A stretch of DNA of 64,000 bases from an uncultured Candidatus Saccharibacteria bacterium (lineage in GTDB: Bacteria > Patescibacteriota > Minisyncoccia > Phycocordibacterales > UBA12445), in the NCBI GenBank assembly GCA_964531375.1, contig CAZHDO010000003.1, positions 17,983 to 81,982 on the forward strand, given 5' to 3'. Below the pieces are notes generated by a model. It worked only from the letters and a program-made list of their open reading frames with translations. It was not told where the DNA came from and did not search any database. This document shows positions 21,209 through 41,464 of the stretch, piece after piece (within the stretch, counting starts at the first letter, position 1; every line of letters starts with the position of its first letter). A program made the position numbers and the translations under genes.

Positions 21209-22285
21209 TTAGATTTTAAACTCAATTACATCCCCATCTTTTACAATATATTCTTTACCTTCAGTCCTAAGTAATCCTTTTTCCCTAGCAACTCCAAACG
21301 AGCCTGAATCTAATAAATCTTGCCAATTTATTACATCAGCGCGAATAAATTTTTCTCTAAAATCTGTATGTATCGCTGTCCCAGCTTCTGGGGCAGGAGA
21401 ATTTCTTTTTGTAGTCCACGCACGAGTTTCATCTTCCCCTGTCGTAAGAAAAGTTATTAAATCTAAAATCTCATAACCCTTTTTTATAAGATCATTTATT
21501 CCGTCGTCTTTTACTTCAAGAGCCTTTCTGTATTCATTCTTTTCATCTCCTTCGAAAGCTGAAAGTTCCTGTTCGATAGCCGCATCTACAACAACATGAC
21601 TTGCCCCAGAACTTTCGAAGAACTTAATTAGATCGCTTGTATCCACTAGCTTGCTCCCGCTCTTGCTATTTAAAACATAAAGAATCGGCTTCATAGTTAA
21701 TAAATGAAGTGACTTTACGATTTTCTTTTCCTCGTCTGTAAAAATTAAAGTACTTGCTAATTGTCCTGCTTCAAGAACTTTTTGAAGTCTTTGTAAAATT
21801 TCATTCTCAATAATTGCAACTTTATCTCCCCTTCTTAGATCTTTACCAACATTAACAATCCTTTTGGAAACAGTTTCCATATCCGCAAGAATAAGTTCAA
21901 GATTTATCACCTCAATATCACTCATTGGATTTGGTTTACCAGAAACGTGAATTATATTTTCATCTTCAAAAATTCTCACAACCTCAGCAATAGCATCCAC
22001 TTCACGAATATTTGAAAGGAATTTATTTCCAAGCCCCTCGCCACTCGCTGCGCCTTTTACAAGTCCTGCGATATCTACGAATTCTATTGCTGTCGGAACT
22101 GTTTTTTTTGAATTTGAGAATTTCGTCAATTTATCCAACCTCTCATCTGGTACAGCCACCACACCAACAGATGGATCTATTGTGCAAAATGGATAATTTT
22201 CCGCAGGCACACACTTTTTTGTAAGAGCATTGAAAAGCGTTGATTTTCCAACATTTGGTAACCCGACAATTCCTATACTGAGCAC
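21209..22285 (-). CDS. ychF: Ribosome-binding ATPase YchF (Obg-family GTPase)
   Basis: It has a GTG start, a G1 motif IGIVGLPNVGKSTLFNALT, and a C-terminal TGS domain (GDVIEFKI). Confidence 0.9.
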   Translation of the reverse strand: MLSIGIVGLPNVGKSTLFNALTKKCVPAENYPFCTIDPSVGVVAVPDERLDKLTKFSNSKKTVPTAIEFVDIAGLVKGAASGEGLGNKFLSNIREVDAIAEVVRIFEDENIIHVSGKPNPMSDIEVINLELILADMETVSKRIVNVGKDLRRGDKVAIIENEILQRLQKVLEAGQLASTLIFTDEEKKIVKSLHLLTMKPILYVLNSKSGSKLVDTSDLIKFFESSGASHVVVDAAIEQELSAFEGDEKNEYRKALEVKDDGINDLIKKGYEILDLITFLTTGEDETRAWTTKRNSPAPEAGTAIHTDFREKFIRADVINWQDLLDSGSFGVAREKGLLRTEGKEYIVKDGDVIEFKI

Positions 22286-23916
22286 GCAAGTTGATGTTAT
22301 TTAATAAAAAAGGAGACAGATTGAGGGCACCGACTGAAGGAGGTATCCATCCATAAGATTCCGGAACGGGAATGAAACCAGATACCTGAATTATTTCCTT
22401 GTTGCCTACTACTCTATCTACAACGCTTTTAACTATGCCTTGTTTTCTCTCGAAATTCAAGCCATCGCCAAATCTCATCTTTGTGTCCAGAGCCAATGCT
22501 TCTATTTGTTTGATATCAGGAAATATTACATCATCAGGCATTTGTGATTCTTGTTTCGACTTCAGTATTTGATTATTAATCGACGACATTCTTTCTCTTA
22601 CCGGATCAACATACTTTTTATATTTATCTATATCCAACAAACCAGCCCCGAATAATTTAGTATATCGATCTTCTTCTTTTCCTAATTTATTTATCTCTTT
22701 CTTTAACGCTTCAACATTTACTGAGATAGTTTTAATCATTGATGGTCTCTCGTTTTTCCATCGCTCAAGATGCCACTTCATCAACTCCGGAGAAGTTAAG
22801 ATATTTTCAAGTTCTCTCCATACTTTTTTATCCGCCACCATCGCATTAATACTTCCCTCTTCACAAGTTGAAGGCAGAGGATATTTATAAATCCTATCGT
22901 TACATCGATAATAAAGATTTGTACCTTTCTTAGGACCGGCGCCGGATCTAGTACAACCGCAAGGACAATGTACTTTTTTTGAGAGAAGATATTCATATTT
23001 AGTACATCTATTAGAATTAATTTTATTAATCTGTAATTTTGCCTGAACACGATCAAACAATTCTTTATCAATAACTTTTATCGTTGGAATTTGAATCCAC
23101 TTATCTTCCGGATGAAACTTTCTGCTAGTCTTCTTTATCTTCTTATACTTTTCCTTCTTGATAGGATTAACCGGTTCAACCGCATAAGAAGCACCGAAAT
23201 GACTTTCTCCAATATATGACTTGTTTCTTAATAATGTAATGAGGGTACTTGTATTCCAAACGCCACGCTTACTTTTGCGAGGAGGGATTCCCAATTCTTG
23301 AAGCTTCTTCACAAGCCCTCTTATGGTACATCCCTCATCAGCCAACGCAAAAATCTTTCGTAAAGTATCTATCTCGTTTGGATTAATTTCATAAAAACCC
23401 TCTTTTTCTTTCGTCCTTAAAACAAAGGTCAAACCGTAAGGAGCTTCAGAAGTAATTATATGTCCCTCTCTGGCTTTTCTTAATTTTCCAATTCTACAAC
23501 GCTCAGCTATCTTTTTTCTTTCATATTCCGCAAAGACACCCCTAACCCCCATCATCAACCTGTCCTCATTGTTTTTTGACGGAGGCATAGTGACAAAGAG
23601 AGGCTCAATACCTAACATTCTCAATTCATCCATTACCAATTCTTGATAATAGTAACGCCTCGCCAGCCTATCATAAAACGGCGTCCCACATCTTCTTCTG
23701 AGCATCTAAACGAAGCTGATCAAGCTGTGGTCTTTCTAGAGTATCTCCGCTCCAACCCTCATCTTCATATACCTGAACAACCTCATATCCTTTGTCTTTG
23801 ATAAAATCATTCATCGCATCAATCTGGGTCTTTATAGTCTGCTCTTCTTCCTGACGGGCAGTAGAAACTCTGGCGTAAGTGGCAATTATTTTAATTTCTT
23901 TTCCTATGTTTTCCAT
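22143..23916 (-). pseudogene. Large serine recombinase (integrase) split by a frameshift: an 81-aa N-terminal ORF (23671-23916) and a 520-aa ORF (22143-23705) in different frames
   Basis: The N-terminal ORF carries the catalytic motif TYARVSTARQ. The 520-aa ORF continues with the resolvase core YDRLARR, a recombinase domain and a zinc ribbon (CPCGC...YYRCN). The frames switch at a T4 run near 23685-23700. The 3' tail of the ORF overlaps the ychF start by 143 nt. Confidence 0.7.
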
Positions 23917-24293: not shown

Positions 24294-24959
24294 TTACTTA
24301 TTTTCAGGAATATTATTTATTCCCTGATAAGCATTCTTGAATTCAACCAATTCACACATGCTGTTTATTCGAGAGAATATTCGGCTACCAACAGCTTCCG
24401 TTAAAGATGTCGGATTATGATTGGTGGTGAAGGAAGTGGATCTCAATTGCTGATATCTTTCATTAATGATCTCGTGATATTCTGAAATAATTGCCTCGGT
24501 GAATTTTTCCGTTCCGATATCATCGATAATTACAAACCCCGGATATACCTTTATATCTTCCAAGAAATCAACGGCTTCTCTCTTCTGAAGCTTTTCCAAT
24601 TCTGAATCGAATTCGGAATCAAATTTAAAAGATAATTTAATCGCATTGATGATCTTCTTAGATGCTATTACCGCCACCTTAGGAACTCCTTTCATAGAAT
24701 CTACATATTTTTGTATCCCGTAAACTGTATGGGTTTTCCCTGCCCTTGATACTCCGAAGAGACAGATACCGTTTTTCTCTAGTCTTCTCCCATTAGAATA
24801 TGAATCTAAAAGCTTATTTATAAAGCTAAAAATAAACTTTCCCTCCGGAGTTATTTTTTCCAATGTTGCCTCTCGGAACATATTCGGAATATTAATAACC
24901 TTCATCATCCCCCAAAATGTTTGTGAAATATCTTTCATTTTAATTAATTTTATTACCAT
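24294..24959 (-). CDS. DnaC/IstB-like AAA+ ATPase (helicase-loader type)
   Basis: It has a Walker A motif GVSRAGKTH and a Walker B motif FVIIDDIG, and lies adjacent to the initiator-like gene with a 20-nt overlap. Confidence 0.65.
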   Translation of the reverse strand: MVIKLIKMKDISQTFWGMMKVINIPNMFREATLEKITPEGKFIFSFINKLLDSYSNGRRLEKNGICLFGVSRAGKTHTVYGIQKYVDSMKGVPKVAVIASKKIINAIKLSFKFDSEFDSELEKLQKREAVDFLEDIKVYPGFVIIDDIGTEKFTEAIISEYHEIINERYQQLRSTSFTTNHNPTSLTEAVGSRIFSRINSMCELVEFKNAYQGINNIPENK

Positions 24960-25836
24960 TAATATCTAACTCTACTTTCTCCCACTTAATCGGTTCCTTT
25001 TGAATAAAGACCCCAGGAGTCCTACCAGTATTCACACCGGTAGGAGTCAGGGAGGCTTCTAATAAAAGAAACTTCTCTATTTGCTGATCACTTCGAAAGA
25101 ACCAGTCGGCGCCAAGACGGGCATTATTGGCCATTCTCCAAACATCCGTTTTGAATTTATCAATGGCCAAAATTATTTCTTCCTTGGAAAATTTCTTTAA
25201 CCTCGCTTTAATACGAGCCTTCGGACAAATCCTAGAACCAGGTTGAATCTTTGATTTAAAATGGCCGTAGATCTCTTCAATTGTCTCTATAGAATTTTTA
25301 GCTTTATATTTACTATTACTTAAAGCATTTAAACTATTAGTACTTAAAGCATTTGTGGCATCCAAATCCACCGGTACATTTTGATCCCCCTGGACCACCG
25401 GGACCTTTTTGTCCTCCTGGTCAATAACTGACTTAATTGTGGTCCTCTTTAATATATAGTTGACCTTCACATACCAGTTTTTAATCTTGCCATTCTCATC
25501 CTTTCTCGCGAACCTTTTTACCAAACCCAATTCTTCCAACCTCTTATGAGCTTTTTCAAATGCTTTCTTTCCTATTTTCATTCCCTTCATTACGAATGAT
25601 TTTACAGCCCAAACCTGATTAGTCTTTTGCCACCTTGCCGTATAATAATAGAAACAATATAAGCCATAAATCTTTGCGAAGTTTTTTTCTTTCAAGAACA
25701 AGTCCATGGTGGCCTTAGGAATGATCACCGAATTATGAAGAATATCAATTTCCTTTTCTTTAGATTCTATAAGCTGATCATTGATCATTCCCTCCAGGAC
25801 AATGGGTTCACTATCTTTTACCACCAATTCTTCCAT
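24940..25836 (-). CDS. Phage/plasmid replication initiator-like protein (wHTH plus a conserved phage C-terminal domain)
   Basis: It has a central winged-helix-like region (LEELGLVKRFARKDENGK) and a C-terminal region (ARLGADWFFRSDQQIEKF) reminiscent of a conserved phage replisome-organiser C-terminus. Confidence 0.45.
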   Translation of the reverse strand: MEELVVKDSEPIVLEGMINDQLIESKEKEIDILHNSVIIPKATMDLFLKEKNFAKIYGLYCFYYYTARWQKTNQVWAVKSFVMKGMKIGKKAFEKAHKRLEELGLVKRFARKDENGKIKNWYVKVNYILKRTTIKSVIDQEDKKVPVVQGDQNVPVDLDATNALSTNSLNALSNSKYKAKNSIETIEEIYGHFKSKIQPGSRICPKARIKARLKKFSKEEIILAIDKFKTDVWRMANNARLGADWFFRSDQQIEKFLLLEASLTPTGVNTGRTPGVFIQKEPIKWEKVELDINGNKIN

Positions 25837-26120: not shown

Positions 26121-26612
26121 TTAATTGATTATAACTGCGCTACCCCCGGCTTTAATTTCTTCTTCACTATTTCTTTTATATTCTCTTCTCCAATATGTTT
26201 TAAGTACCATATCGAAAATCGATCTACTATTATGAACAAATAATTTTTCAATAGTGTCCAGTGCATCATCAACATCCGTGAAATTAATTACAGCCCCCAA
26301 TTCCTTCAATTTATCCAGAAGATTTAAAAAAGAATCTCTATCCTTTGTAAATCTTTTTGCGGAGCCGGCAATTATATAATATTTCTTTTCGCTATCTTTC
26401 AAATAAGAAAGGAGATCTTTTACACCCGGATTTTCCAGACAATTAAACGCTGAGCCACTTTCTATAAACACCTTTTCGACCTCACAACCTAACTCTTCCG
26501 CATACTCTCTAGCCCATTTCTCTTGAGCCTTTAAATATTCTGCATTTCTTAATGGATCTTTTATCCCGGCTCTACAATAAATTACAGCACTTCTTTTGAT
26601 CTCGTTTTCCAT
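26121..26612 (-). CDS. Resolvase N-terminal-domain-like protein lacking the catalytic serine
   Basis: AVIYCRAGIKD aligns to the YxRVSTxxQ core of serine recombinases but reads R-A-G instead of R-V-S-T. The remainder follows the resolvase alpha/beta pattern. There is no DNA-binding C-terminal domain. Confidence 0.35.
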   Translation of the reverse strand: MENEIKRSAVIYCRAGIKDPLRNAEYLKAQEKWAREYAEELGCEVEKVFIESGSAFNCLENPGVKDLLSYLKDSEKKYYIIAGSAKRFTKDRDSFLNLLDKLKELGAVINFTDVDDALDTIEKLFVHNSRSIFDMVLKTYWRREYKRNSEEEIKAGGSAVIIN

Positions 26613-26634: not shown

Positions 26635-27177
26635 TTATAAATTCCTTAATTCCGGATCGATATACGGAATTCCTAACATCTCAAAGAGGTCCTCTTCTTC
26701 TCTTACTTCATATTCATTAAGGACACCTTCTTCATCTTCTCTGGTCAAATATCCATCAACGCTTTTATACCCTCTCCTACACCAACCATTAGCCAATACT
26801 TTATGGCTATAATTGGAGGACCCAGTTCTGAGGGCAAAAGTTAATCCCCATCTATCTTCTTCGGTGAAAAATAAATCCAGAGCTATTCCTTCAGGCAACA
26901 TCCTTTGGGAATATCTACAGGGAAGCTCTCCTCTCACCTTTTCCCACCTATTAATAACCGAGGCTATTCCACTTTCGAATAATCCTATTTCATACGGTTT
27001 TGGAATCGCTACTATTTCTATATCACCGACCAAAGGCTTTTTTCTTCTTATACTTCCCGCAATTTCTGCTCTAATACAATGAGGACGGAGTAAATCCAAC
27101 ACCCTCAAAGCTATCTCATGAGCTTCCTCATAAGGGAACCTTTTTTCTACTTCATTCTTTTCTTCTTCTTTATTCAT
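26635..27177 (-). CDS. Minimal Pol X-family (Pol beta-like) nucleotidyltransferase, 180 aa
   Basis: The palm signature IAGSIRRKKPLVGDIEIVAIP matches the GS-x(9-13)-D-x-D/E pattern. The C-terminal MLGIPYIDPELRN resembles the conserved LGLPYIEPELRE of Pol X. The size is comparable to the smallest viral Pol X enzymes. Confidence 0.55.
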   Translation of the reverse strand: MNKEEEKNEVEKRFPYEEAHEIALRVLDLLRPHCIRAEIAGSIRRKKPLVGDIEIVAIPKPYEIGLFESGIASVINRWEKVRGELPCRYSQRMLPEGIALDLFFTEEDRWGLTFALRTGSSNYSHKVLANGWCRRGYKSVDGYLTREDEEGVLNEYEVREEEDLFEMLGIPYIDPELRNL

Positions 27178-27369
27178 CTTAAATATTTTTAACTATTAAT
27201 CTTCCTTCTTCTTTAATAATTCTTAAAAAATCTTTTCCAACATCTATTAATGATGCCAACCGAGAAAAATCATTTCTAAAACAAAAAAGTACCTTATTCA
27301 GGTACATATAATTATTACATTGGTCTTTTTTAGAACTTGAAATTCTAAACAATTCTGGACAATTCCAGG

Positions 27370-28660: not shown

Positions 28661-30160
28661 TTATTTATTATTAATCACCTCATTAAGTATCCTAAATATC
28701 TCAACCATAACAAATGTATCTTGTTTACAATATTCTTTAATCAGATATATTTTATTTGCTCGGTCTTTTGGCTCTTCTCCTTTATTAACAATATCTCCCC
28801 ACCAGACGAAACCTACATCATTACCAGTATATGGCAGATGGTCATAGGACATCTTGGGAAGTAATACGGTCATTACTGATTCTATCCCAGAACTACCTCC
28901 GAAATCTTTGTGGACATAATGCTGTTTTGAGAATACATCTCGAAGATCTTTCATTTGACGACAGATTCTGTTTAGGACTTTTTCGTATTTTGGAAGTCTA
29001 AGTCCGATCTCTTTGGTGACACCCTTCTCAAACGAAACATTCCAGGCAAGTACCGTACCCTTAGGGTCAACAATCTTTTCCAGTAGTTTTGCAACTGCTT
29101 CAGATGGGTCCGAATTCTCTTCGTGGAGATAATCTACATGGCGCAGTGGTCCGCCTTTCTGATCGATAATGTGCATTGAGAATTGAATAGGAATTCTTTG
29201 GTATGGTCTGAATCCAGAATATGCAGGTACTGCTGGGGCAAAGGTTTCGTAATCGAAGAAATAAAGAGGGTAAGTATATTCATCTAAAATATATGAGATC
29301 TCTTTCCTATCTATTATTTCTTCTTCTGTTTTGTGGGTATGAATTTGATTCTTTTGTGTCTCGGTAAAACCCTTGGTATCTGCTATCTCGTGCAAATGAT
29401 AAATACCATCTTTCACAAGCTTGGTCAGTTTTTTAGAAGTGATACGAGACAAATCGTGAATAGAATATTCCGGGAACTCCGGATGGGATATCTCGAAGGT
29501 GGCACAGTGACTTCTTCGTCCATAATAATGACAATCACATCCGACTGCCGGCTCTTTCGTTTGGTTCAGATATTCTTTAGCCTCTTCCATTTGTTTAGCA
29601 GTAGGAGCTTTCTTTGCAGAGACTTGATCGGTACTATCGTCAATTATAAAAAGCTTCTTAATATCTATCTCCCCATCACGAACATATTTATTATTTATAT
29701 GAACAATGAATTTTTTACCTATATCAATACCTGCCCGTTCCAAAACAATTACCTGAAAGGCAAGATCTGAAATATGATCTCTTGGCCCATCGTCATCTTT
29801 TTTTGAGCTCGAAGCTTTTACTTCATAGATATCCCATTTTTTAGTTTCAGAATTCCAAACAAGAAAATCACAACGGATTATATATCCATCAGCAACAAAT
29901 GTCGGCTGATAAATGGCCGGCACTTTTTGCGCCATAAGTTGCTCTATCTCTTTTGATGCCGAAAAATCATGATTCTTAACTTCAACGAAACCGGGAAATA
30001 ATCCCTTCGCATATTCCTCTACTGTATTCCCTTGATCCATTATATTCTGTTGCGACAGGGGTACTTCAAACTGTTCTAGTTCAGGTCTATTTAATCTAAA
30101 CCAAGCGTCCTTTGGACACATAAGATACTCAAGAAATCTGGATTTAGATATAAGTTTCAT
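28661..30160 (-). CDS. DUF2779-like nuclease: Cas4/RecB-type PD-(D/E)xK domain with Fe-S cysteines plus a C-terminal DEDD-like 3'-5' exonuclease region
   Basis: The N-terminus MKLISKSRFLEYLMCPKDAW is the DUF2779 hallmark. DGYIIRCDFLV...WDIYEVK gives the PD-(D/E)xK motif. CDCHYYGRRSHC together with the N-terminal Cys gives a 4-Cys cluster. FFDYETF is an Exo I-like DxE motif, and YCKQDTFVM is a Y-x4-D Exo III-like motif. Confidence 0.6.
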   Translation of the reverse strand: MKLISKSRFLEYLMCPKDAWFRLNRPELEQFEVPLSQQNIMDQGNTVEEYAKGLFPGFVEVKNHDFSASKEIEQLMAQKVPAIYQPTFVADGYIIRCDFLVWNSETKKWDIYEVKASSSKKDDDGPRDHISDLAFQVIVLERAGIDIGKKFIVHINNKYVRDGEIDIKKLFIIDDSTDQVSAKKAPTAKQMEEAKEYLNQTKEPAVGCDCHYYGRRSHCATFEISHPEFPEYSIHDLSRITSKKLTKLVKDGIYHLHEIADTKGFTETQKNQIHTHKTEEEIIDRKEISYILDEYTYPLYFFDYETFAPAVPAYSGFRPYQRIPIQFSMHIIDQKGGPLRHVDYLHEENSDPSEAVAKLLEKIVDPKGTVLAWNVSFEKGVTKEIGLRLPKYEKVLNRICRQMKDLRDVFSKQHYVHKDFGGSSGIESVMTVLLPKMSYDHLPYTGNDVGFVWWGDIVNKGEEPKDRANKIYLIKEYCKQDTFVMVEIFRILNEVINNK

Positions 30161-30163
30161 AAG

Positions 30164-31279
30164 CTATTTATCCCCATCATTTACCAACTTCGAAGTGACG
30201 GAGAGATTTTCAAGTTGTGCAATTCGTTCTTCTAATTTTTTGATTACTTCCTTGTCTTGTAAGATTATGCCCTTACTGGACAATTCTCTTACCTGCTTGT
30301 ACTTGTCATCAATTTCTTTTTCAAGCCTTTCGTTCGCCCTAAGAACTGAGTCGACCAATCTGAGTGTTAAATCATCCAAAACCTGACCATTTTCTCTTTT
30401 TGATTTATCTAACTCCTGTTTCGCTTTATCCTTTTCCGTACGATTTTTCTTTCCATCAATAAGTTTCCATTGGGCATACAGCACTACCAATCCCCCAAAA
30501 ATACCGCCGACTGCATTAGCAATAATTGGTGTATCGTTTGCTGTCCGCCATGCCGATTTCATATAATCAACAACATGGTATTTATCCCACAGATCAAATA
30601 TTATTTGTGGATCAAGATGCTGAAAAAAAGTGAGATCGATTGGTGACTTGCTTGTTATCTCACTTATGGATGTATACTTTTGTAAGTTTAAATCAAGATT
30701 TCTAGAATTTCTCATCCTAACTGTACGATATACACTTTTACTCAGGTCGTGGTAGTTACCATTTTCGTCGTACCTATCATCTCCTATTTTCGATGATTTA
30801 AATTTTGTGAGACTAATGCTGAGTTTAGATGCGTATTTAGTTCCAACCACACCTATTACACGTTCAACTTCAGGATGTTTTTTAAGAAATGGTTTAAATC
30901 TTTCTTCTATTTCACCTACATTCAGTGTTGCTTCTATCAAAACAAAAAAGATGTCGTTTTCAAACAACTCAGAAAGACCGTGTTCCTCAACCATCTTTCG
31001 ATATTCTCTTGCATGAAGATAACCTTTTTTCTTTGCGAACGATTCATTTAATTTACTAAATTTAGGTATCCCTTCACTAAGAATTTTTTCCAATAAAGTC
31101 TCCTTGTCTATCTTTATGGCAACAAAAAAGAGCAAAACATAAAATTGCATGTCTGCTTTTGTGGAATTTGCGATAGTATCTTTATAGAGAAAATTTACAA
31201 CCTCATCACGTAAATTAAGTAAGGAGAGATCTTTTAATCCCTTATCCTTTTCTTTAATTTTTACTTCTATCTTTTTCAT
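30164..31279 (-). CDS. Membrane-anchored coiled-coil protein (371 aa)
   Basis: It has a single TM helix (IIANAVGGIFGGLVVLY) followed by a long coiled-coil. Its start overlaps the Res stop (ATGA). Confidence 0.45.
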   Translation of the reverse strand: MKKIEVKIKEKDKGLKDLSLLNLRDEVVNFLYKDTIANSTKADMQFYVLLFFVAIKIDKETLLEKILSEGIPKFSKLNESFAKKKGYLHAREYRKMVEEHGLSELFENDIFFVLIEATLNVGEIEERFKPFLKKHPEVERVIGVVGTKYASKLSISLTKFKSSKIGDDRYDENGNYHDLSKSVYRTVRMRNSRNLDLNLQKYTSISEITSKSPIDLTFFQHLDPQIIFDLWDKYHVVDYMKSAWRTANDTPIIANAVGGIFGGLVVLYAQWKLIDGKKNRTEKDKAKQELDKSKRENGQVLDDLTLRLVDSVLRANERLEKEIDDKYKQVRELSSKGIILQDKEVIKKLEERIAQLENLSVTSKLVNDGDK

Positions 31280-34182
31280 ACATTCAGTAATACTGATACT
31301 GTAGAGCTAACTGTTATTTTTTCTGTTGGGACAATCACGTATCGCCACGGTTTTGCTATTCCATATTTACCAACATTCTTTGAAACTAACTCGCAATACT
31401 TATCTGCTGTTTTCTTTTTCTCTTGTATATCTAGATTGCCTATCTCCCCACTTGTTTTTACTTCAACCATTACAATTTCATTTTCAAATTCAACTATAAA
31501 ATCTGGCTCGTAGCGGTGTTGTGAATTGCCAAATTCGTCACGCCAATATAGTCCTTCAAATTGATTTGGGGCAGGTCGAAGCCAGTCTTCAACTGAACCA
31601 TCCCTGTCTAATAAATAAGCCAAACGTGCTTCGTCAGAGGAATCGAAACGATACATTGAGTGACAGGCCTTACTAAACCCCGTATAAATTCTATCTCTCG
31701 AAAAGCGATCAAATTGGGATTCTAGTGTGACAGGTTTCTCGTCAAAACTTCGGGAAATATTGTACTGTTCCAAATATGGTTTTGGTTCACGAATACCAGA
31801 CTCCAAATAGCCCTCGGACTTAAAATGTTTGTGATCCAATATTTGAGCGTATATTTCATTAGCTATTTGGCGTGTATTATTTTCTACCATCATCTTGAGG
31901 GTATTAACATCAGCCGTAAAAGATCTGTAGTATGTAGTCGCTTGTTTTGAAAGCTTGATCAACAATTCTTTCTGTTCATCGTAATCGATGAGAGGATGAT
32001 CGGAGTCAACTAAAACAGAAATGATCGTATTTTCAGGACTCTGAGCCCGACCCTCACCAAGACTCGATACGCGAGTAACTTCAGTCTCCCTACGTCCTTG
32101 ATGGGCAACACCAAATAAATCTTTTTCTTCTTTCCCCTGCAACGACTGCTCGAGTATTGAAGCTTCCGTAGCAAATCTACTTAATTTCTTTATATCCAAA
32201 TTAAAATCATCTATAACAAGCTCTCCATAGTGAGGTGTGAGCATTAACCTTGGAATAGGGATGTTACGAATCTCAATAGTTTCTTTAGAAATACGTCCGA
32301 TGCTCTCAAGCTCTTTTTTAGCAGGCTCACTTAAAATATTAAACAGTGAACTCTCTTCATATACAGTGCCACCAGTCTGCCCAACTCCTATTTTTCTTGC
32401 CTCATTCTTTGCGGTTATCTCCACAATTTCATTTACCTTATTTTGTATCGTTGCCACCTTAACATCCTCCGGGGTGTCTTCTCCTATAACAGCACTGACT
32501 GTTTTTGTCGCTTGCTCTTGGATTTCCTGCATTATCACCGGACTAGCCTTAATTTGATCCTGTATGCTTGTTACGAATGCCGACTGAACCTCAATAATTT
32601 CTTTTACTACTTTTGTATCATCAGTTGAAATACTTTCAATATTTGTTGGTTGAATAAGCTTAGAGTTGCGTGCTTCTTCAATAACTTTCGCGTAATTGTC
32701 ATGGGCAACAATCATCACACGATCTACTTTTTTGTTTCCAGTTTTTTCCCCGTATGGTAGACGGAGACCTCGGCCAATTGTTTGTTCAGTTAAAATCTGT
32801 GCAGCCGAAGATCGTATTGGTGCAATGGTATAAATATTAGAAACATCCCAACCCTCCTTAAGCATGTTCACGTGGATAACAATTTCTACAATATTATCAG
32901 GATGTTCAAGTGATATTAATTTTTCAATCGTTTCATCTGCTTCATCTCCCCTTGTTTTTGTATGAACCTCAATCACCCTTCCCTTATAGACACCGCCCCT
33001 AAAATCATCACTATCAATTAGTTTACGGAGCGCGCTGGCGTGGGCTGTATCTTTGGCTACTACAAGCATCACGGGCTTCACCTCCTGCTTATCATTTTCG
33101 AGCGCATAATCTTTTAAAGCTAACTTTGCTCGTTCGTGGAAAAAAGCGGCGAGCTGTAATTTACGAGCGTCTGTTTCTATAGATTCAGCGTCCAAATGAC
33201 TAAAATCGACATCAGCTTCCGTGCCAATCCATGGATCTTTCACATACCCATCACGAATAGCATCACCGAGATTATAGACATAGAAGATGTTTTTCTTGAG
33301 AACAAGTTCCGCACCCCTCCTTGTAGTAGTTGGGGCAAGATATGGCGTAGCGGTAAATTCAAGTCCAAATAACGGATCAATACGGTCAAGAGAACTCATT
33401 GCAGCATCGGCGTGATAGTGATGCGATTCATCCATCAACACAACCAGATCATCGAGTGACGCTAGGTGATCAAAGTAAGATAAAAGCCTCCCGTCTTCTA
33501 CTCCAAAAATTTCCGAACCTTTTGTAATACCCTTTTCCTTTTCTATATCTTTTTGTGCAAACTGCTGAATATTAAAAATATTTATTTCAATCTTATTTGC
33601 AAAGAGTTGTGCCGTTCGGCTTTGCACGTAGTTTTCTTTAATGATAATTTTTACATTTGAAGTAGTAAGTTCTTCAATCCCACGGAAAACATATTTGGGA
33701 TTATTGGCTTTGCTAAAATCATCTACCAGTTTACGGTAGATGGTATTACCCGGAGCAACAATCAAAAAATGTTGAACGCCATAAACAAGATAGAGATATG
33801 TCACAAAAGCACCCATGAGACGAGTTTTTCCCACACCAGTGGCAAGAGCGAAAGTATATGCTGGAAAGGTTCGTTCAAAAGCCTGAAATTGCTTCAATCC
33901 AGGGATTGTGTGCGTGTATTCTTTTGTCGCTTCTTCGATATCACTAACACTCCCACGGTTCCCCCTCTTCATTCTTGCTAATACTTTTTTACCAGCATCC
34001 CCCTCTAGAAAATCAGCGAAAAAATGCAAACTTTTTTCTTGCGGAGTTCGCAGGCTCATTGTGTTAGTTATATATTGTAGGGCTTGTTCTTTTTTCATAT
34101 TATTATTCATCAGAATCACTTTCTTCTTCAATTTCTTCCATTGCCCGCTCTTTAATAGGAAGTAGATACTCTTTCTTTCCAA
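31276..34182 (-). CDS. res: Type III restriction enzyme Res subunit (SF2 helicase plus C-terminal PD-(D/E)xK endonuclease)
   Basis: It has a motif I ATGVGKT, a motif II LMDESHH, and a C-terminal YEPDFIVEF...VMVEVK nuclease motif. The likely true start is the ATG at 34110 or 34098, overlapping or abutting the Mod stop. At about 940 aa it is typical of Type III Res. Confidence 0.75.
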   Translation of the reverse strand: MERKSIYFLLKSGQWKKLKKKVILMNNNMKKEQALQYITNTMSLRTPQEKSLHFFADFLEGDAGKKVLARMKRGNRGSVSDIEEATKEYTHTIPGLKQFQAFERTFPAYTFALATGVGKTRLMGAFVTYLYLVYGVQHFLIVAPGNTIYRKLVDDFSKANNPKYVFRGIEELTTSNVKIIIKENYVQSRTAQLFANKIEINIFNIQQFAQKDIEKEKGITKGSEIFGVEDGRLLSYFDHLASLDDLVVLMDESHHYHADAAMSSLDRIDPLFGLEFTATPYLAPTTTRRGAELVLKKNIFYVYNLGDAIRDGYVKDPWIGTEADVDFSHLDAESIETDARKLQLAAFFHERAKLALKDYALENDKQEVKPVMLVVAKDTAHASALRKLIDSDDFRGGVYKGRVIEVHTKTRGDEADETIEKLISLEHPDNIVEIVIHVNMLKEGWDVSNIYTIAPIRSSAAQILTEQTIGRGLRLPYGEKTGNKKVDRVMIVAHDNYAKVIEEARNSKLIQPTNIESISTDDTKVVKEIIEVQSAFVTSIQDQIKASPVIMQEIQEQATKTVSAVIGEDTPEDVKVATIQNKVNEIVEITAKNEARKIGVGQTGGTVYEESSLFNILSEPAKKELESIGRISKETIEIRNIPIPRLMLTPHYGELVIDDFNLDIKKLSRFATEASILEQSLQGKEEKDLFGVAHQGRRETEVTRVSSLGEGRAQSPENTIISVLVDSDHPLIDYDEQKELLIKLSKQATTYYRSFTADVNTLKMMVENNTRQIANEIYAQILDHKHFKSEGYLESGIREPKPYLEQYNISRSFDEKPVTLESQFDRFSRDRIYTGFSKACHSMYRFDSSDEARLAYLLDRDGSVEDWLRPAPNQFEGLYWRDEFGNSQHRYEPDFIVEFENEIVMVEVKTSGEIGNLDIQEKKKTADKYCELVSKNVGKYGIAKPWRYVIVPTEKITVSSTVSVLLNV

Positions 34183-35800
34183 ATTGGCACGCTTTCAAAA
34201 TTGACTGTGGTATTTTCTTAATAGTTATACGACCATCCACCTTTTCACATCCAGGTTCAAATTTCTTTGGACAAATAAGTAACGTCTCGTTGAAACCTAA
34301 ATGGCTCACAATCTGTTGGACCATCGCTACAGATAACATTTGTGTAGTTATATAAATACTATTGTTGCCTTGGCCCTTGCCATGTTTCCGATAATCAGAC
34401 GGACTTGGAGCGAACGTGTAGTTGGTAAGCTTACACATAGCGCGAATAAGCTTAGTGTCATTGTAATAGCTATCAATCACAGGATTACCAAATTCATCAA
34501 TTACTACAAAGCTTGGCGCCAGCTCGTAAAACTTAAATCCACCTCCTCCGTGCCAATTCACAGCTTCGCTGATTCCATTAGGATCTTCGGCGTCAACGAC
34601 TGCCTTCATTCGTTTATGCACGTGCGAATAAGCGTGATCTCCCATTTCTATCCCAATATAATTAAAATTCATTTTATGAGCTACTGCCGTTGTTGTGCCT
34701 GAGCCAAGAAACGAATCCAGAATCCAATCCTTACTAGACAAATTTGCTATTTCAAAAAAAGTCTTAATAAGCGATTCTGGTTTTTTAGAGTTTCGAAATT
34801 CAACCACACCTTCATATCCAACACGGTTGAAAGCTGCAGAAGCATCAAAAAAGGATGGATACGGAAGTTCTTTTGACGAAATTCGTGTTTGGGGTACTCC
34901 TTGAAAATAATTACCATTTTTCTTTTTAATATTTTCTGGTGAAAGAAAATATCTGTGGCCAGTTCCGTCATCTCCCATATTAGGGACCTCGTACAAAACA
35001 TTATGACCATCACTTTGAAGTCGTCCTTCAATATGAGCAACATAAAATCTACCACTACTGTTTCCTTCTCTTAACCCACCTCGAATATTAATCTTCTTAA
35101 GTCCAGTTTTATTTCCATCTGAACGGGTTAATTCATACTCACCAAATTTAAAAACATGACACTCCTTATTTCCCAGCAGAAGTTTTTCTCCGGCTCCAAT
35201 TGTTTTTACAGTCCATTCATAACCTTCATACGGATCAGCCGTGACCAACTGTTTTCTTTTTGAAATATTAAATTGATTTGTTTTTTGATAACAGTGTACA
35301 TATTCAGCGACATCGTGAATATCTTTGTCTCCCTTCAACATTCGCTCTGAGTGTCTAACTTTTATAATAAACGACGTAATAAAATTGTTTCTTTGGAAAA
35401 CTTCATCTAATAGGACTTTCAGATATGCTTGCTCTCCATTATCAATTTGTACAAAAATTACCCCATCATCCTTCAAAAGCATTCTTAACAACTCCAATCT
35501 AGGCCTCATAAGTGAGAGCCAAGTACTATGTTCCACACTGTCATCATAATGTTCAAAAGCATTACCGGTATTGTATGGGGGGTCAATATAAATGCATTTT
35601 ACTTTTCCTTCATACTCAGGAAGAAGCGCTTTTAGAGCGAGTAGATTGTCACCATGAATAATCATATTCTCCGTATCTTTGTCGCCATAGGACAAATCAG
35701 TTCGTTCTTCCAAAATGCGTGGTTCAATGTTAGCAATATCATACTCAGGATTATTCTTCCCGATCCATGTAAGCTCTAGTTTTTGTTTGTTGTTTGACAT
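34103..35800 (-). CDS. mod: Type III R-M Mod subunit (beta-class N6-adenine / N4-cytosine DNA methyltransferase)
   Basis: Motif IV IYIDPPYNTG precedes motif I LDSFLGSGTT, which is the beta-class permutation. The gene lies immediately upstream of, and is coupled to, res. Confidence 0.8.
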   Translation of the reverse strand: MSNNKQKLELTWIGKNNPEYDIANIEPRILEERTDLSYGDKDTENMIIHGDNLLALKALLPEYEGKVKCIYIDPPYNTGNAFEHYDDSVEHSTWLSLMRPRLELLRMLLKDDGVIFVQIDNGEQAYLKVLLDEVFQRNNFITSFIIKVRHSERMLKGDKDIHDVAEYVHCYQKTNQFNISKRKQLVTADPYEGYEWTVKTIGAGEKLLLGNKECHVFKFGEYELTRSDGNKTGLKKINIRGGLREGNSSGRFYVAHIEGRLQSDGHNVLYEVPNMGDDGTGHRYFLSPENIKKKNGNYFQGVPQTRISSKELPYPSFFDASAAFNRVGYEGVVEFRNSKKPESLIKTFFEIANLSSKDWILDSFLGSGTTTAVAHKMNFNYIGIEMGDHAYSHVHKRMKAVVDAEDPNGISEAVNWHGGGGFKFYELAPSFVVIDEFGNPVIDSYYNDTKLIRAMCKLTNYTFAPSPSDYRKHGKGQGNNSIYITTQMLSVAMVQQIVSHLGFNETLLICPKKFEPGCEKVDGRITIKKIPQSILKACQFGKKEYLLPIKERAMEEIEEESDSDE

Positions 35801-35808
35801 AATTATAA

Positions 35809-36387
35809 TTATTTTAGATGTGGACGAAGGAATATCTCGATTTCTTTTATAGCACCATCTACCTTTTTTGAAAACTCATCATTAACTCCAATGTTATATA
35901 TAATACTATCAGTACTATCACTAGAGCGTCCATCTAAATATAAACTTAGTCCGCTATATAGCTCTCTTACTAATGCATCTAGATTTAATTGTGCTTTCGT
36001 TGCCTCAGACCCCCATGATACTTCTGCTTCAAGTAATTCGGCTTCAAGATTTGTCCAAGCTTCTCTCACTTTATTCCATCGAACTGAATATACAGCCCTA
36101 TTCATCTTTTGATTGTCACTATATTCCTCTGCTTTAAATCCATTAACCTCAAGAGCCGACTGCATTTCGCCCAATGGAATGAAGGGGTTTCTCACAAATT
36201 TTATAGCATCTCTTAATTTTAGAGAGGCCTTTAGATACTTTCTGGCAATCTCGTAGTTTGTTTTTCCCATCATCTGCTTCCTCCACCCAACTAATCCAAA
36301 AATGGCAACCCCAGCTACAATAACAGCAGATATAGATGTTATAGAATTTGCGACAGTATTAAATATGATTTCTGTACTTGTAGACAT
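35809..36387 (-). CDS. Small membrane protein (192 aa) with an N-terminal TM helix and a helical C-terminal domain
   Basis: It has a TM segment SITSISAVIVAGVAIFGLVGW. It lies 2 nt after the SNF2 stop and 8 nt before the mod start. Confidence 0.45.
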   Translation of the reverse strand: MSTSTEIIFNTVANSITSISAVIVAGVAIFGLVGWRKQMMGKTNYEIARKYLKASLKLRDAIKFVRNPFIPLGEMQSALEVNGFKAEEYSDNQKMNRAVYSVRWNKVREAWTNLEAELLEAEVSWGSEATKAQLNLDALVRELYSGLSLYLDGRSSDSTDSIIYNIGVNDEFSKKVDGAIKEIEIFLRPHLK

Positions 36388-36389
36388 AA

Positions 36390-39419: not shown

Positions 39420-39479
39420 AAGATACTGGACATTTCCTCATTTAACACCCCAACAAAAAGAAGAGGGGTTCTACGATTT

Positions 39480-41240: not shown

Positions 41241-41464
41241 TTTTTATAGATATATGGCTCAGCAAATTCGACTATCCCTGCCTGATACAAAAAAATAAGG
41301 GAAAATATAACCTGTCTGTGATTTATCGTGCCTAATTCCTGTTTCAAATTTACAAAAATTTCATCTAACATTAACTTTTGTTCTTTCGCTTTTGAAATCT
41401 TTTTTAAAATCAAAAAGCCGAGATAAGGTGAAGATGTTTTAATTTTTTCATCTTTACTAATCAT
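41237..41464 (-). CDS. Small alpha-helical protein (75 aa), a candidate middle component of the three-gene ABC ATPase module
   Basis: It is coupled by 4-nt overlaps to both of its neighbours. Confidence 0.4.
   Translation of the reverse strand: MISKDEKIKTSSPYLGFLILKKISKAKEQKLMLDEIFVNLKQELGTINHRQVIFSLIFLYQAGIVEFAEPYIYKK

What the first reader, a model, noticed from the sequence alone, without database searches (positions are those of the whole stretch)
26635..27177. 180-aa Pol X-family nucleotidyltransferase, near the minimal size known for this family
The palm motif AGSIRRKKPLVGDIEIV and the C-terminal LGIPYIDPELRN match Pol beta/Pol X. There are no lyase, BRCT or PHP domains. Enzymes this small are known from some large DNA viruses, where they do gap-filling repair. 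Within a mobile island beside a resolvase-like gene, it could support repair or replication of the element. It could also be a minimal nucleotidyltransferase for signalling.
Basis: partly seen in the sequence, partly recalled or inferred. Interest (0 to 1): 0.6.

Follow-up and report, generated by a model that had tools for sequence, protein, structure and literature searches.

The report
Mini Pol X of mobile elements
The gene encodes a real, stripped-down relative of repair DNA polymerase beta (180 aa) from a large, uncharacterised family (some members only about 156-162 aa) carried by phages and integrated mobile elements next to their replication genes, so it is probably a tiny DNA gap-filling enzyme, though its activity is untested.

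Summary
ORF 26635..27177 (minus strand, 180 aa) is a genuine family X (Pol beta-like) nucleotidyltransferase with only the palm and the C-terminal nucleotide-selection subdomain. It has no 8-kDa lyase, helix-hairpin-helix or PHP domain, the same architecture as the 174-aa ASFV Pol X. Sequence profiles hit Thermus PolX (6e-8) and ASFV Pol X (8.5e-5). A confident AF2 model (pLDDT 91) matches Pol beta/lambda (E ~5e-11, TM ~0.7), not small non-polymerase NTases. The acidic triad is D52-x-E54...D101, not three Asp. It is near-invariant across 134 divergent sequences (DED 93%, rare DDE/DDD), as are GS-x-RR and an Arg at the second steric-gate position ("RTGS" versus "FTGS" in the full YFTGS motif). 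The family is large (about 1,550 50%-identity clusters at E<=1e-10, nearly all 155-210 aa) and spans Patescibacteria, Bacteroidota, Verrucomicrobiota and uncultured phages. Members sit beside unrelated types of mobile-element primase-helicases, integrases and DNA methylases. Here it is the first gene of an operon ending in a (split) large serine recombinase next to ychF. Most likely it is a distributive short-gap-filling polymerase serving element replication or repair. A signalling role is not supported. No paper found describes this family.

The parts
26635..27177 (-). Mini Pol X gene, 180 aa: palm (about residues 14-105) plus C-terminal nucleotide-selection subdomain (about residues 106-180)
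   Evidence: ORF; Pfam thumb/palm; PDB profile hits; AF2 model and Foldseek
27043..27057 (-). Codons for G41-S42-I-R44-R45, the triphosphate-binding GS-x-RR motif
   Evidence: Aligns to ttPolX CGSARRYK and ASFV VGSLRREE. G41 133/134, S42 131, R44 130, R45 133 across representatives
27016..27024 (-). Codons for D52-I53-E54, the first two metal ligands (DxE instead of DxD)
   Evidence: Aligns to ttPolX GDLDFL and ASFV NDVDLL. D52 131/134; E54 126/134 with D in 7. Codons read
26875..26877 (-). Codon for D101, the third metal ligand
   Evidence: Aligns to the Asp in ttPolX 'LQVDLRV' and ASFV 'YQLDLF'. 130/134 D, 3 E
26818..26832 (-). Codons for L116-R117-T-G-S120. The family signature '(I/L)RTGS' replaces the Pol beta 'YFTGS' steric-gate motif
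   Evidence: Aligns to ttPolX YLTGS and ASFV (H/F)FTGP. R117 131/134 plus 3 K; T118 132; G119 134
27289..27305 (-). Terminator-like hairpin plus T-run between the upstream 283-aa gene and the Pol X gene, which makes Pol X the first gene of the next transcription unit
26121..26612 (-). 163-aa protein with a resolvase catalytic-domain fold only, 'YCRAG' where the catalytic 'YxRVS' Ser would be; next gene in the operon
   Evidence: Pfam Resolvase 3.3e-9; NCBIfam weak hits; sequence read. Not a recurrent neighbour in other loci
24940..25836 (-). 298-aa putative replication initiator / helicase-loading protein (weak DnaB-remodelling-like match)
   Evidence: NCBIfam NF053829 E=1.3e-3, weak; no Pfam hit; position next to the loader ATPase
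24294..24959 (-). 221-aa DnaC/DnaI/IstB-like AAA+ helicase-loader ATPase
   Evidence: Pfam Bac_DnaA 1.7e-5; NCBIfam PRK08116 3e-21 and DnaI/DnaC/IstB hits
22143..23916 (-). Large serine recombinase of the element, split into an 81-aa ORF (23671..23916, catalytic YARVST) and a 520-aa ORF (22143..23705); marks the element end
   Evidence: Pfam Resolvase/Recombinase/Zn_ribbon_recom; ORFs; local HMM labels
21209..22285 (-). Chromosomal ychF (GTPase) flanking the element; probable integration target
   Evidence: Pfam MMR_HSR1 + YchF-GTPase_C. The same ychF cluster flanks the recombinase in L007 and L063

Best explanation
The gene encodes a catalytically competent, minimal family-X nucleotidyltransferase made of the palm and the C-terminal nucleotide-selection subdomain only. 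Shown: homology, fold, motif conservation and context. Inferred: it binds an incoming (d)NTP through G41-S42 and R44/R45, and uses two metal ions held by D52, E54 and D101 to add nucleotides to a 3'-OH. Lacking the 8-kDa and helix-hairpin-helix DNA-binding domains, it would be distributive and suited to filling gaps of one to a few nucleotides. It belongs to a large family carried by temperate and transposable phages and by integrative islands, placed inside their replication/recombination modules. In this window it is the first gene of the operon Pol X, resolvase-like protein, 86-aa ORF, initiator-like protein, DnaC-like loader, 103-aa ORF, large serine recombinase, in an island inserted next to ychF. 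The most likely role is accessory DNA synthesis for the element. That could mean completing short gaps or primer-proximal stretches during the element's own replication or recombination/transposition, or repairing its DNA, while bulk synthesis is left to the host replicase.
For: Family membership and fold: ttPolX 6e-8, ASFV Pol X 8.5e-5, Pol lambda 1.7e-3; pLDDT 91.4; all 50 listed PDB hits are Pol beta/lambda; giant-virus Pol X, including a 174-aa Harvfovirus Pol X with TM 0.68/0.70. Active-site selection: GS-x-RR, D52, E54, D101, R117, TG invariant in 28 close homologues and 94-100% conserved in 134 sequences down to about 38% identity. The exceptions to DED are mostly DDE or DDD, so one Glu is usually retained, as expected for a working metal site. 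Prostova et al. 2022 (PMC9226535) class Asp/Glu triads as canonical and probably active. Family size: 4,328 50%-identity representatives at E<=1e-3 and 1,550 at E<=1e-10, nearly all 155-210 aa. Context: 41 of 64 non-redundant genome loci have a recombinase within 10 kb (24 large serine, 19 tyrosine). The adjacent large genes are non-homologous mobile-element primase-helicases: Prim-Pol+PriCT_1+/-AAA_25, Toprim, DnaG+DUF927, PriCT_2+D5_N+DUF5906, DUF3987, BT4734_N+PriCT_2+DUF5906. A pooled scan of 146 nearest neighbours is led by AAA_25, Prim-Pol, recombinases and DNA methylases. 130 IMG/VR contigs carry it next to DnaB, AAA_24 and SNF2 helicases and a dATP/dGTP pyrophosphohydrolase, on contigs with terminase, Mu-type portal or T7-like RNAP. 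Window operon structure.
Against: No biochemical data exist for any member. Position 2 of the triad is Glu; from my memory of Pol beta mutagenesis, D190/D192 to Glu is strongly deleterious there. The residue aligned (via ttPolX R270 and ASFV R127) to Pol beta R283, which positions the template, is an invariant Leu/Met. The aromatic steric-gate residue is replaced by an invariant Arg, so sugar selectivity, template dependence or even the substrate may differ from Pol beta. The family is only weakly basic (median net charge +2) and this protein is acidic (pI 5.0, net -9), against +14 for the ASFV Pol X core, which argues against strong stand-alone DNA binding. No AP endonuclease or ligase partner, as in ASFV base-excision repair, was seen nearby. 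Serine and tyrosine recombinases leave no gaps to fill. The context is a generic DNA-metabolism module without one obligate partner, so the precise step cannot be deduced.
Confidence: 0.55

Rival explanations
1. It is an active Pol X-fold enzyme, but not a templated gap-filler. It would act as a template-independent terminal transferase or as a ribonucleotide-incorporating or otherwise relaxed polymerase (Pol mu/TdT-like behaviour), for example tailing or healing DNA ends of the element.
For: The steric-gate motif YF is replaced by (I/L)R with invariant Arg, and the Pol beta R283 equivalent is Leu. From established knowledge, Pol mu and TdT also deviate at these positions (G-W) and incorporate rNTPs or act without a template. 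Prostova et al. note that ASFV Pol X, Pol lambda, Pol mu and TdT can bind dNTP without DNA and do non-templated synthesis. Rare fusions to HNH endonuclease and DUF4326 suggest end-processing contexts.
Against: No loop-1-like insertion typical of TdT/Pol mu is evident in a 180-aa protein. The closest sequence relatives are templated gap-fillers (ttPolX, ASFV Pol X). Context gives no specific hint of end-joining: no Ku or ligase was seen among the top neighbour families.
Confidence: 0.17
2. It is the initiating or primer-extending polymerase of the element's replisome. It would work with the neighbouring helicase, possibly with a small partner protein, as a primase-like enzyme or as the first extender of primers. 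This would be analogous to the truncated A-family polymerase + SSB primases of SCCmec elements.
For: It lies immediately next to replicative helicases. In several Bacteroidota/Saccharibacteria loci the adjacent protein is helicase-only, with no recognisable primase catalytic domain: AAA_25 of 341-407 aa in L001, L006, L013, L029, L036; PriCT_2+D5_N+DUF5906 without an AEP domain in L028; DUF3987 in L027; DUF5906 in L034. There is a precedent for a cut-down polymerase recruited as a mobile-element primase beside a helicase and serine recombinases (Rice 2023, PMC10061031). From memory, human Pol lambda, Pol mu and TdT have been reported to make short DNA de novo.
Against: In about 18 Patescibacteria loci a full Prim-Pol primase-helicase is present next to the Pol X, so it is not simply a primase substitute. 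In this window the partners are DnaD-like/DnaC-like loaders that would recruit the host primase. No conserved small partner was found across loci. No Pol X primase is known.
Confidence: 0.13
3. It is a non-polymerase minimal nucleotidyltransferase, such as a signalling cyclase/CD-NTase-like enzyme, an MNT/KNTase-type toxin-antitoxin or resistance NTase, or a protein/small-molecule nucleotidylyltransferase.
For: It has the generic Pol beta-superfamily core (hG[GS], DxE, D). From memory, DxE occurs in kanamycin NTase-type enzymes. The island carries defence cargo: type III R-M, a DrmD-like SNF2 helicase and PDC-M68B.
Against: It has the Pol X-specific C-terminal subdomain above the Pfam gathering score, including the terminal LG.P...P..R motif shared with ttPolX, ASFV Pol X and Pol beta. 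All 50 listed PDB fold hits are Pol beta/lambda, and other NTases appear in BFVD only at E>1e-2. No PADLOC model matches, and there is no HEPN or effector neighbour. Homologues sit in replication modules and not in defence operons.
Confidence: 0.05
4. It is a catalytically dead remnant or purely structural DNA-binding subunit derived from a full-length bacterial PolX.
For: About a quarter of full-length prokaryotic PolX have inactivated polymerase sites (PMC9226535). The triad is not DDD.
Against: Inactive PolX show many different degraded triads and deletions. Here all metal ligands and dNTP-binding residues are 94-100% conserved across a very large family of uniform length with compensated variants. 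The ORFs are intact and stand-alone.
Confidence: 0.05

Closest known systems
African swine fever virus Pol X (O174L, 174 aa; PDB 1JAJ/1JQR, 5HRB etc.)
   Same: Same two-subdomain architecture (palm + C-terminal subdomain, no 8-kDa lyase, no HhH subdomain, no PHP) and the same size class. Profile-level sequence homology covers almost the whole length (E=8.5e-5, query 31-170 versus 35-177). GS-x-RR, the first and third Asp, TG and the C-terminal LG..Y..P..R motif all align. [quoted passage not shown]
   Different: Only about 20% identity. ASFV has DxD, an aromatic H115-F116 gate and R127, where this family has DxE, (I/L)-R and Leu. ASFV Pol X is strongly basic (+14 on the aligned core) whereas this protein is -9 and the family median is +2. 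ASFV is a eukaryotic NCLDV enzyme working in base-excision repair with a viral AP endonuclease and ligase. This family lives in bacterial phages and integrative elements next to primase-helicases and integrases. Some members are smaller (156-162 aa).
Canonical bacterial PolX (Thermus thermophilus ttPolX 3AU2/3B0X; Bacillus subtilis YshC), about 570 aa
   Same: Best sequence match of the family profile (6e-8) across the palm and C-terminal subdomain (ttPolX 154-315). NCBIfam PRK08609 aligns to model positions 148-315 of 571. The dNTP-binding and metal-binding motifs are shared.
   Different: Lacks the N-terminal 8-kDa and HhH subdomains and the whole PHP 3'-5' exonuclease/AP-endonuclease domain. 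NCBIfam score is 27 bits against a cut-off of 426. DxE not DxD, Arg not Leu/Phe at the gate, and no R270 equivalent. It is a mobile-element gene, not a chromosomal repair gene.
[quoted passage not shown]
   Same: PolX2 is also a bacterial Pol X lacking the 8-kDa and PHP domains.
   Different: [quoted passage not shown] PolX-like proteins lack the polymerase region altogether. Neither is a 160-180-aa stand-alone palm+C-terminal protein, and that survey reports only these groups. I did not test direct sequence comparison with a PolX2 member.
SCCmec CcPol-MP type primases (truncated A-family polymerase + SSB; Rice 2023, PMC10061031)
   Same: A cut-down DNA polymerase catalytic core encoded on integrative elements beside a replicative helicase and serine recombinases. 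It is a functional analogy for what a minimal polymerase can do in a mobile-element replication module.
   Different: Unrelated fold (family A, not family X). It requires a small OB-fold partner, and no conserved partner was found here. Primase activity is demonstrated there and purely hypothetical here.

Membership tests
DNA polymerase family X (Pol beta-like polymerases) | Pol beta-superfamily palm with the hG[GS]-x-RR dNTP-binding motif | tested here: met
   A-G41-S42-I-R44-R45 aligns to ttPolX CGSARR and ASFV VGSLRR and is 97-100% conserved. The Pfam palm model alone is below its cut-off (16.1 versus 25 bits), but some homologues carry a precomputed PF14792 hit.
DNA polymerase family X (Pol beta-like polymerases) | Three acidic metal ligands (canonically DxD...D) | tested here: met
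   D52-x-E54...D101 align to the GDLD and VD Asp positions of ttPolX and the NDVD and LD Asp positions of ASFV Pol X. All three are acidic but position 2 is Glu (126/134). Asp/Glu triads are counted as canonical by Prostova et al..
DNA polymerase family X (Pol beta-like polymerases) | Pol X-specific C-terminal (nucleotide-selection) subdomain, Pfam PF14791 | tested here: met
   PF14791 E=6e-7, 29.7 bits against a cut-off of 25. The subdomain is modelled with pLDDT above 90 and superposes on Pol beta/lambda.
DNA polymerase family X (Pol beta-like polymerases) | 8-kDa dRP-lyase domain and HhH DNA-binding subdomain | tested here: not met
   The protein starts about 13 residues before the palm, with no Pfam, PDB or model evidence of these domains. 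Their absence is shared with ASFV Pol X, so it is not disqualifying for the family.
DNA polymerase family X (Pol beta-like polymerases) | YF(TGS) steric gate and the helix-N Arg (Pol beta R283) for templated, dNTP-selective synthesis | tested here: not met
   (I/L)116-R117-TGS, with Leu at the position aligned to ttPolX R270 / ASFV R127. The Pol beta numbering is from my own knowledge.
DNA polymerase family X (Pol beta-like polymerases) | Template-directed DNA polymerase activity | not testable with these tools
   No biochemical data for any member were found in the searched literature.
ASFV-type minimal Pol X | Stand-alone palm + C-terminal subdomain protein of about 170-180 aa | tested here: met
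   180 aa here; family median 175 aa, minimum 156 aa. The profile alignment to 5HRH covers residues 35-177 of 178. A 174-aa giant-virus Pol X model gives TM 0.68/0.70.
ASFV-type minimal Pol X | Close sequence relationship or monophyly with ASFV/NCLDV Pol X | tested here: inconclusive
   The profile E-value to ASFV (8.5e-5) is weaker than to bacterial ttPolX (6e-8). No phylogeny was built.
ASFV-type minimal Pol X | Operates with a co-encoded AP endonuclease and ligase in base-excision repair | tested here: not met
   Neither appears among annotated window neighbours nor among the 25 commonest neighbour families in 146 pooled neighbours. Several small or unannotated ORFs remain unassigned.
Minimal non-polymerase NTases (MNT/KNTase, CD-NTase/cGAS-like, CCA-adding head domains) | Best sequence/fold matches to those families; partner HEPN or effector gene; defence-system model hit | tested here: not met
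   No such Pfam hit at E<=1. No PADLOC hit. All 50 listed PDB fold hits are Pol beta/lambda. In BFVD other NTases appear only at E>1e-2. Neighbours are replication/recombination genes.

The most novel reading that the evidence does not exclude
This family could be the smallest natural DNA polymerases (down to about 156-162 aa), with a re-tooled active site (DxE metal ligand plus an invariant Arg in place of the aromatic steric gate). Mobile elements would use it as a dedicated replisome component working with their helicase, either as a Pol X-fold primase/initiating polymerase or as the obligatory first extender of primers, and not as a repair enzyme. In the helicase-only Bacteroidota elements it would supply the missing priming activity.
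Probability: 0.13. Interest if true: 0.8.

Novelty: new variant of a known kind. Interest (0 to 1): 0.55.

Why it matters
ASFV Pol X is widely cited as the smallest DNA polymerase and is treated as a viral oddity. This gene shows that bacteria's mobile elements and phages carry a very large, strongly conserved family with the same stripped-down architecture. Some members are smaller still, and the family has its own active-site signature (D-E-D, RTGS). Two recent surveys of prokaryotic Pol X and bacterial polymerases do not describe it. If active, these enzymes would do three things. They would add a new accessory polymerase to the toolkit of integrative elements, satellites and transposable phages. 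They would offer a possible evolutionary source or parallel for the giant-virus mini Pol X. They would also provide very small polymerase scaffolds; ASFV Pol X has been used for chemical synthesis and mirror-image work because of its size (PMC10805118 was listed but I did not read it in detail). The invariant Arg at the steric gate makes substrate choice (dNTP or rNTP, templated or not) a directly testable question.

Tried and rejected
- **PHROGs:** no family at E<=1.
- **PADLOC:** no hit for the protein, so a defence-system or signalling reading was rejected.
- **tblastn against 50,697 isolated phage genomes:** no match. **Against 72,556 plasmids:** only a full-length polX and one unannotated Streptomyces locus. 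The family is therefore essentially absent from cultured phage and plasmid collections, despite 130 IMG/VR matches.
- **Rfam scan of 20-48 kb:** nothing.
- **Sigma-70 promoter scan:** fewer sites than in shuffles, so uninformative.
- **Search for one obligate conserved partner gene:** none found, because the neighbours vary by lineage.
- **The adjacent 163-aa resolvase-like gene as a partner:** rejected, because it occurs only in this window.
- **The 57-aa ORF 27179..27352:** rejected as a gene, because it spans the terminator-like hairpin.
- **Pseudogene or fragment of a full-length PolX:** rejected on family size, uniform length and motif conservation.
- **Literature searches (six searches, eight papers opened):** no description of a roughly 170-aa prokaryotic or phage Pol X. 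This is absence from an open-access library, not proof of absence.
- **Element boundary distal to the recombinase, and att sites:** not determined.
Full report
**1. The observation**

An ATG-to-stop ORF of 180 aa occupies 26635..27177 on the minus strand. The two quoted motifs are residues 40-56 (AGSIRRKKPLVGDIEIV) and 168-179 (LGIPYIDPELRN).

- Pfam finds the Pol X-specific C-terminal subdomain (DNA_pol_B_thumb, E=6e-7, 29.7 bits, cut-off 25). It gives a sub-threshold palm hit (16.1 bits) and nothing else at E<=1.
- phmmer against PDB sequences aligns residues 12-178 to residues 156-314 of Thermus thermophilus PolX (1.3e-4).
- A profile of 28 homologues raises this to 6e-8. It also detects ASFV Pol X almost end to end (8.5e-5; 31-170 versus 35-177) and Pol lambda (1.7e-3).
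- NCBIfam aligns the protein to positions 148-315 of the 571-position PolX model, far below that model's full-length cut-off.
- An AlphaFold2 model built on the family alignment is confident (pLDDT 91.4, pTM 0.85). Its 50 listed Foldseek matches in the PDB are all Pol beta or Pol lambda (E 4e-11 to 3e-10, TM normalised to the query 0.66-0.75).
- Against viral models, the matches are giant-virus Pol X proteins, including a 174-aa Harvfovirus Pol X (TM 0.68/0.70). Generic nucleotidyltransferases appear only at E>1e-2.

This is a Pol X palm plus C-terminal subdomain with no lyase, HhH, BRCT or PHP domain.

**2. The active site**

The alignments to ttPolX and ASFV Pol X place the motifs as follows.

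| Feature | This protein | ttPolX | ASFV Pol X |
|---|---|---|---|
| dNTP-binding motif | G41-S42-x-R44-R45 | GSARR | GSLRR |
| First two metal ligands | D52-x-E54 | GDLD | NDVD |
| Third metal ligand | D101 | VD (in LQVDLRV) | LD (in YQLDLF) |
| Steric-gate motif | L116-R117-T-G-S | Y-L-T-G-S | (H/F)-F-T-G-P |

The triad is therefore D-E-D. I verified the codons on the raw sequence.

This is a family trait and not a lesion.

- The residues are invariant in 28 close homologues.
- Across 134 sequences (133 50%-identity representatives plus the query) reaching down to about 38% identity, counts out of 134 are: G41 133, S42 131, R44 130, R45 133, D52 131, E54 126 (Asp in 7), D101 130, R117 131 (plus 3 Lys), T118 132, G119 134.
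- The triad is DED in 93%. The main exceptions are DDE (3) and DDD (3), so one Glu is usually retained somewhere.
- This pattern is the opposite of the heterogeneous, degraded triads of the inactive full-length PolX described by Prostova et al., who count Asp/Glu triads as canonical (PMC9226535).

Two features depart from templated gap-fillers.

- An invariant Arg replaces the aromatic gate residue (Pol beta F272, from my own knowledge).
- Leu/Met sits where ttPolX R270 and ASFV R127 lie (Pol beta R283).

In addition, this protein is unusually acidic (pI 5.0, net -9). The family median is pI 8.5 and net +2, and the ASFV core is +14.

**3. The family**

- The exact protein is on record as a hypothetical protein of an uncultured 'bacterium' MAG on a 93-kb contig.
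- The word-indexed search found 1,404 relatives. The top 120 are all 162-208 aa at 59-72% identity, and are named, if at all, 'PolX', 'family 10' or 'DNA polymerase beta thumb domain-containing protein'.
- The exhaustive search of 1.84 billion cluster representatives found 4,328 at E<=1e-3 and 1,550 at E<=1e-10. Nearly all listed hits are 155-210 aa, with complete members of 156-162 aa.
- Rare fusions add an HNH endonuclease or a DUF4326 domain.
- Species-representative genomes with a copy include Saccharibacteria, Paceibacterota, Minisyncoccia, many Bacteroidota, Verrucomicrobiota, a Cyanobium, a Syntrophaceae, a Pseudoxanthomonas and a Parvularculaceae. Identity across phyla is 50-69%, which implies horizontal spread.
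- 130 IMG/VR viral contigs carry it. Isolated phage genomes have none, and plasmids carry only full-length polX.

**4. Context elsewhere**

I called ORFs in 64 non-redundant genome loci, clustered them and annotated representatives.

- 41 loci have a recombinase within 10 kb (24 large serine recombinases, 19 tyrosine integrases).
- In about 18 Patescibacteria loci the order is: small ORF, Pol X, (small ORF), Prim-Pol+PriCT_1(+AAA_25) primase-helicase of 660-880 aa, (small ORF), large serine recombinase.
- In Bacteroidota the typical order is: tyrosine integrase, an ORF of about 270 aa, HTH_17, AAA_25 helicase, Pol X.
- Elsewhere the adjacent large protein is a Toprim primase, DnaG+Toprim+DUF927, PriCT_2+D5_N+DUF5906, DUF3987, or BT4734_N+PriCT_2+DUF5906.

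The partner has thus been swapped repeatedly for non-homologous replication initiators while the Pol X stays.

A pooled scan of the nearest ORF of at least 150 aa on each side (146 proteins) is led by the following:

- AAA_25 (8), Prim-Pol (5), Resolvase/Recombinase (4), Phage_integrase (3);
- five kinds of DNA methyltransferase (13 in all);
- a 3'-5' exonuclease family (3), PriCT domains, DUF3987, DUF5906, YqaJ, dCTP deaminase and IstB-like ATPases.

In viral contigs the gene lies in long same-strand runs of early genes. These include DnaB, AAA_24 and SNF2 helicases, methylases, and a dATP/dGTP pyrophosphohydrolase immediately upstream in four contigs. The contigs also encode a large terminase, a Mu-type portal+F protein or a T7-like RNA polymerase. 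Several carry a 676-aa + AAA_22 pair upstream that could be MuA/MuB-like, which I did not verify.

**5. Context in the window**

All genes from 27177 down to 22143 are on the minus strand and tightly packed:

- Pol X;
- a 163-aa resolvase-fold protein;
- an 86-aa ORF;
- a 298-aa protein with a weak helicase-loading/remodelling match;
- a 221-aa DnaC/DnaI/IstB-like ATPase;
- a 103-aa ORF;
- a large serine recombinase split into 81-aa and 520-aa ORFs.

Next comes chromosomal ychF, then MurA-like and MreB genes.

A terminator-like hairpin (27305..27289) separates the upstream 283-aa gene from Pol X, so Pol X appears to head this replication/integration operon.

Upstream lies cargo: a DUF2779/Cas4-like nuclease, a type III restriction-modification pair, a DrmD-like SNF2 helicase, a PDC-M68B/DUF2326 protein and a SMEK-domain protein.

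The 'resolvase-like gene' beside the Pol X is not its recombinase and is not a conserved partner.

**6. Mechanism**

Shown:

- Pol X homology and fold;
- strong purifying selection on dNTP-binding and metal-binding residues;
- residence in mobile-element replication/recombination modules.

Inferred:

- two-metal nucleotidyl transfer to a 3'-OH;
- distributive action on short gaps, because the DNA-gripping domains are missing, as in ASFV Pol X;
- a role in completing or repairing element DNA while the host replicase does bulk synthesis.

I put the confidences at about 0.95 for a Pol X-family enzyme, about 0.85 for catalytic activity, and about 0.55 for a templated short-gap DNA polymerase serving the element.

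Rivals:

- A relaxed, template-independent or rNTP-using enzyme (0.17), suggested by the Arg gate and the missing R283 equivalent.
- A primase-like or first-extender partner of the element helicase (0.13). This is suggested by helicase-only neighbours in several loci and by the SCCmec precedent of a truncated A-family polymerase acting as a primase (PMC10061031). It is weakened by coexistence with full Prim-Pol primases in Patescibacteria.
- A non-polymerase or signalling NTase (0.05).
- A dead remnant (0.05).

**7. Comparison with what is known, and novelty**

The closest functional and architectural analogue is ASFV Pol X. The closest sequence relative is the core of bacterial PolX.

The gene passes the family X tests for palm motif, acidic triad and C-terminal subdomain. 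It fails those for the 8-kDa/HhH domains (as ASFV does) and for the YF/Arg helix-N features.

Two recent systematic surveys do not describe a stand-alone group of about 170 aa:

- PMC9226535 states that most prokaryotic PolX share a common architecture.
- PMC12926913 reports only PolX1, PolX2 (with an extra C-terminal helical domain) and polymerase-less PolX-like proteins.

AEP-primase, phage-polymerase, NT-fold and tycheposon papers I opened do not mention it.

I therefore rate it a new variant of a known kind. It is an uncharacterised but database-visible subfamily with a distinctive active-site signature and ecology, not a new kind of system. Interest is moderate (0.55). It would rise if the enzyme proves to be the smallest active polymerase or to have unusual substrate or initiation properties.

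Noticed in passing
window 22143..23916 (-): The island's large serine recombinase is split into an 81-aa ORF carrying the catalytic YARVST motif (23671..23916) and a 520-aa ORF with the rest (22143..23705), overlapping by 35 nt in different frames. This could be a frameshift pseudogene (immobilised island), a MAG assembly error or programmed frameshifting. The 520-aa ORF also runs about 140 nt into the start of ychF.
   Followed up: partly
window 21209..22285; L007 and L063: ychF directly flanks the serine recombinase end of Pol X-bearing elements in this window and in two other Patescibacteria genomes (same ychF cluster c50). This suggests the 5' end of ychF is a conserved attachment site for this recombinase lineage.
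   Followed up: partly
window 26121..26612 (-): A 163-aa protein with only a resolvase catalytic-domain fold (Pfam 3.3e-9) and no DNA-binding domain. It reads 'YCRAG' where serine recombinases have 'YxRVS', so the nucleophilic Ser appears to be missing. Its function is unknown, and it is not found next to Pol X in other loci.
   Followed up: partly
window 28661..42420 (-): Defence-type cargo of the island: a DUF2779/Cas4-like nuclease (499 aa), a type III restriction enzyme (968 aa, PADLOC REase_III 3.7e-130) with an N6/N4 methylase, a DrmD-like SNF2 helicase (1009 aa, 1.2e-210), a DUF2326/PDC-M68B protein (586 aa) and a SMEK-domain protein (319 aa). Unannotated 371-aa and 192-aa ORFs lie between them. 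The far boundary of the island was not determined.
   Followed up: partly
L008, L009 (same contig JBAQNN010000001.1, about 20 kb apart) and L023: One Minisyncoccia MAG carries three separate Pol X / primase-helicase / serine recombinase cassettes, two of them on one 68-kb contig. This indicates multiple related elements per small genome.
   Followed up: no
L091, L092, L097, L099 (IMG/VR contigs), gene immediately upstream of the Pol X homologue: A dATP/dGTP pyrophosphohydrolase (PF04447, 6.6e-19) sits directly upstream of the mini Pol X in a group of related viral contigs. dCTP deaminase-like genes are neighbours in two other loci. This may point to a link with altered nucleotide pools or modified DNA.
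   Followed up: no
L088, L094, L115, L140, L142 (IMG/VR contigs): Contigs with a Mu-type portal/F protein carry a 676-691-aa protein plus an AAA_22 ATPase plus an ATPase of about 210 aa upstream of the Pol X homologue. This may be a MuA/MuB-like transposition module. If so, a phage-encoded filler of the short gaps left by transposition would be an attractive specific role.
   Followed up: no
P0166 (351 aa) and P0251 (311 aa): Rare fusion proteins: HNH endonuclease + mini Pol X, and DUF4326 (+DUF488-N3a-like) + mini Pol X. These hint at coupling with DNA cutting or end processing.
   Followed up: partly
L028:8064-9854, L001:8826-9887, L027:2448-3851, L034:7908-9323: In several Bacteroidota elements the replication protein next to the Pol X is helicase-only. 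L028 has a PriCT_2 domain at its very N-terminus with no AEP primase domain before it; the others are AAA_25, DUF3987 or DUF5906 alone. It is open what primes these elements.
   Followed up: partly
window 27179..27352 (-): The 57-aa TTG ORF listed between the 283-aa gene and Pol X overlaps a terminator-like hairpin (27305..27289) and a second inverted repeat (27354..27369). It is probably non-coding regulatory sequence and not a gene.
   Followed up: partly
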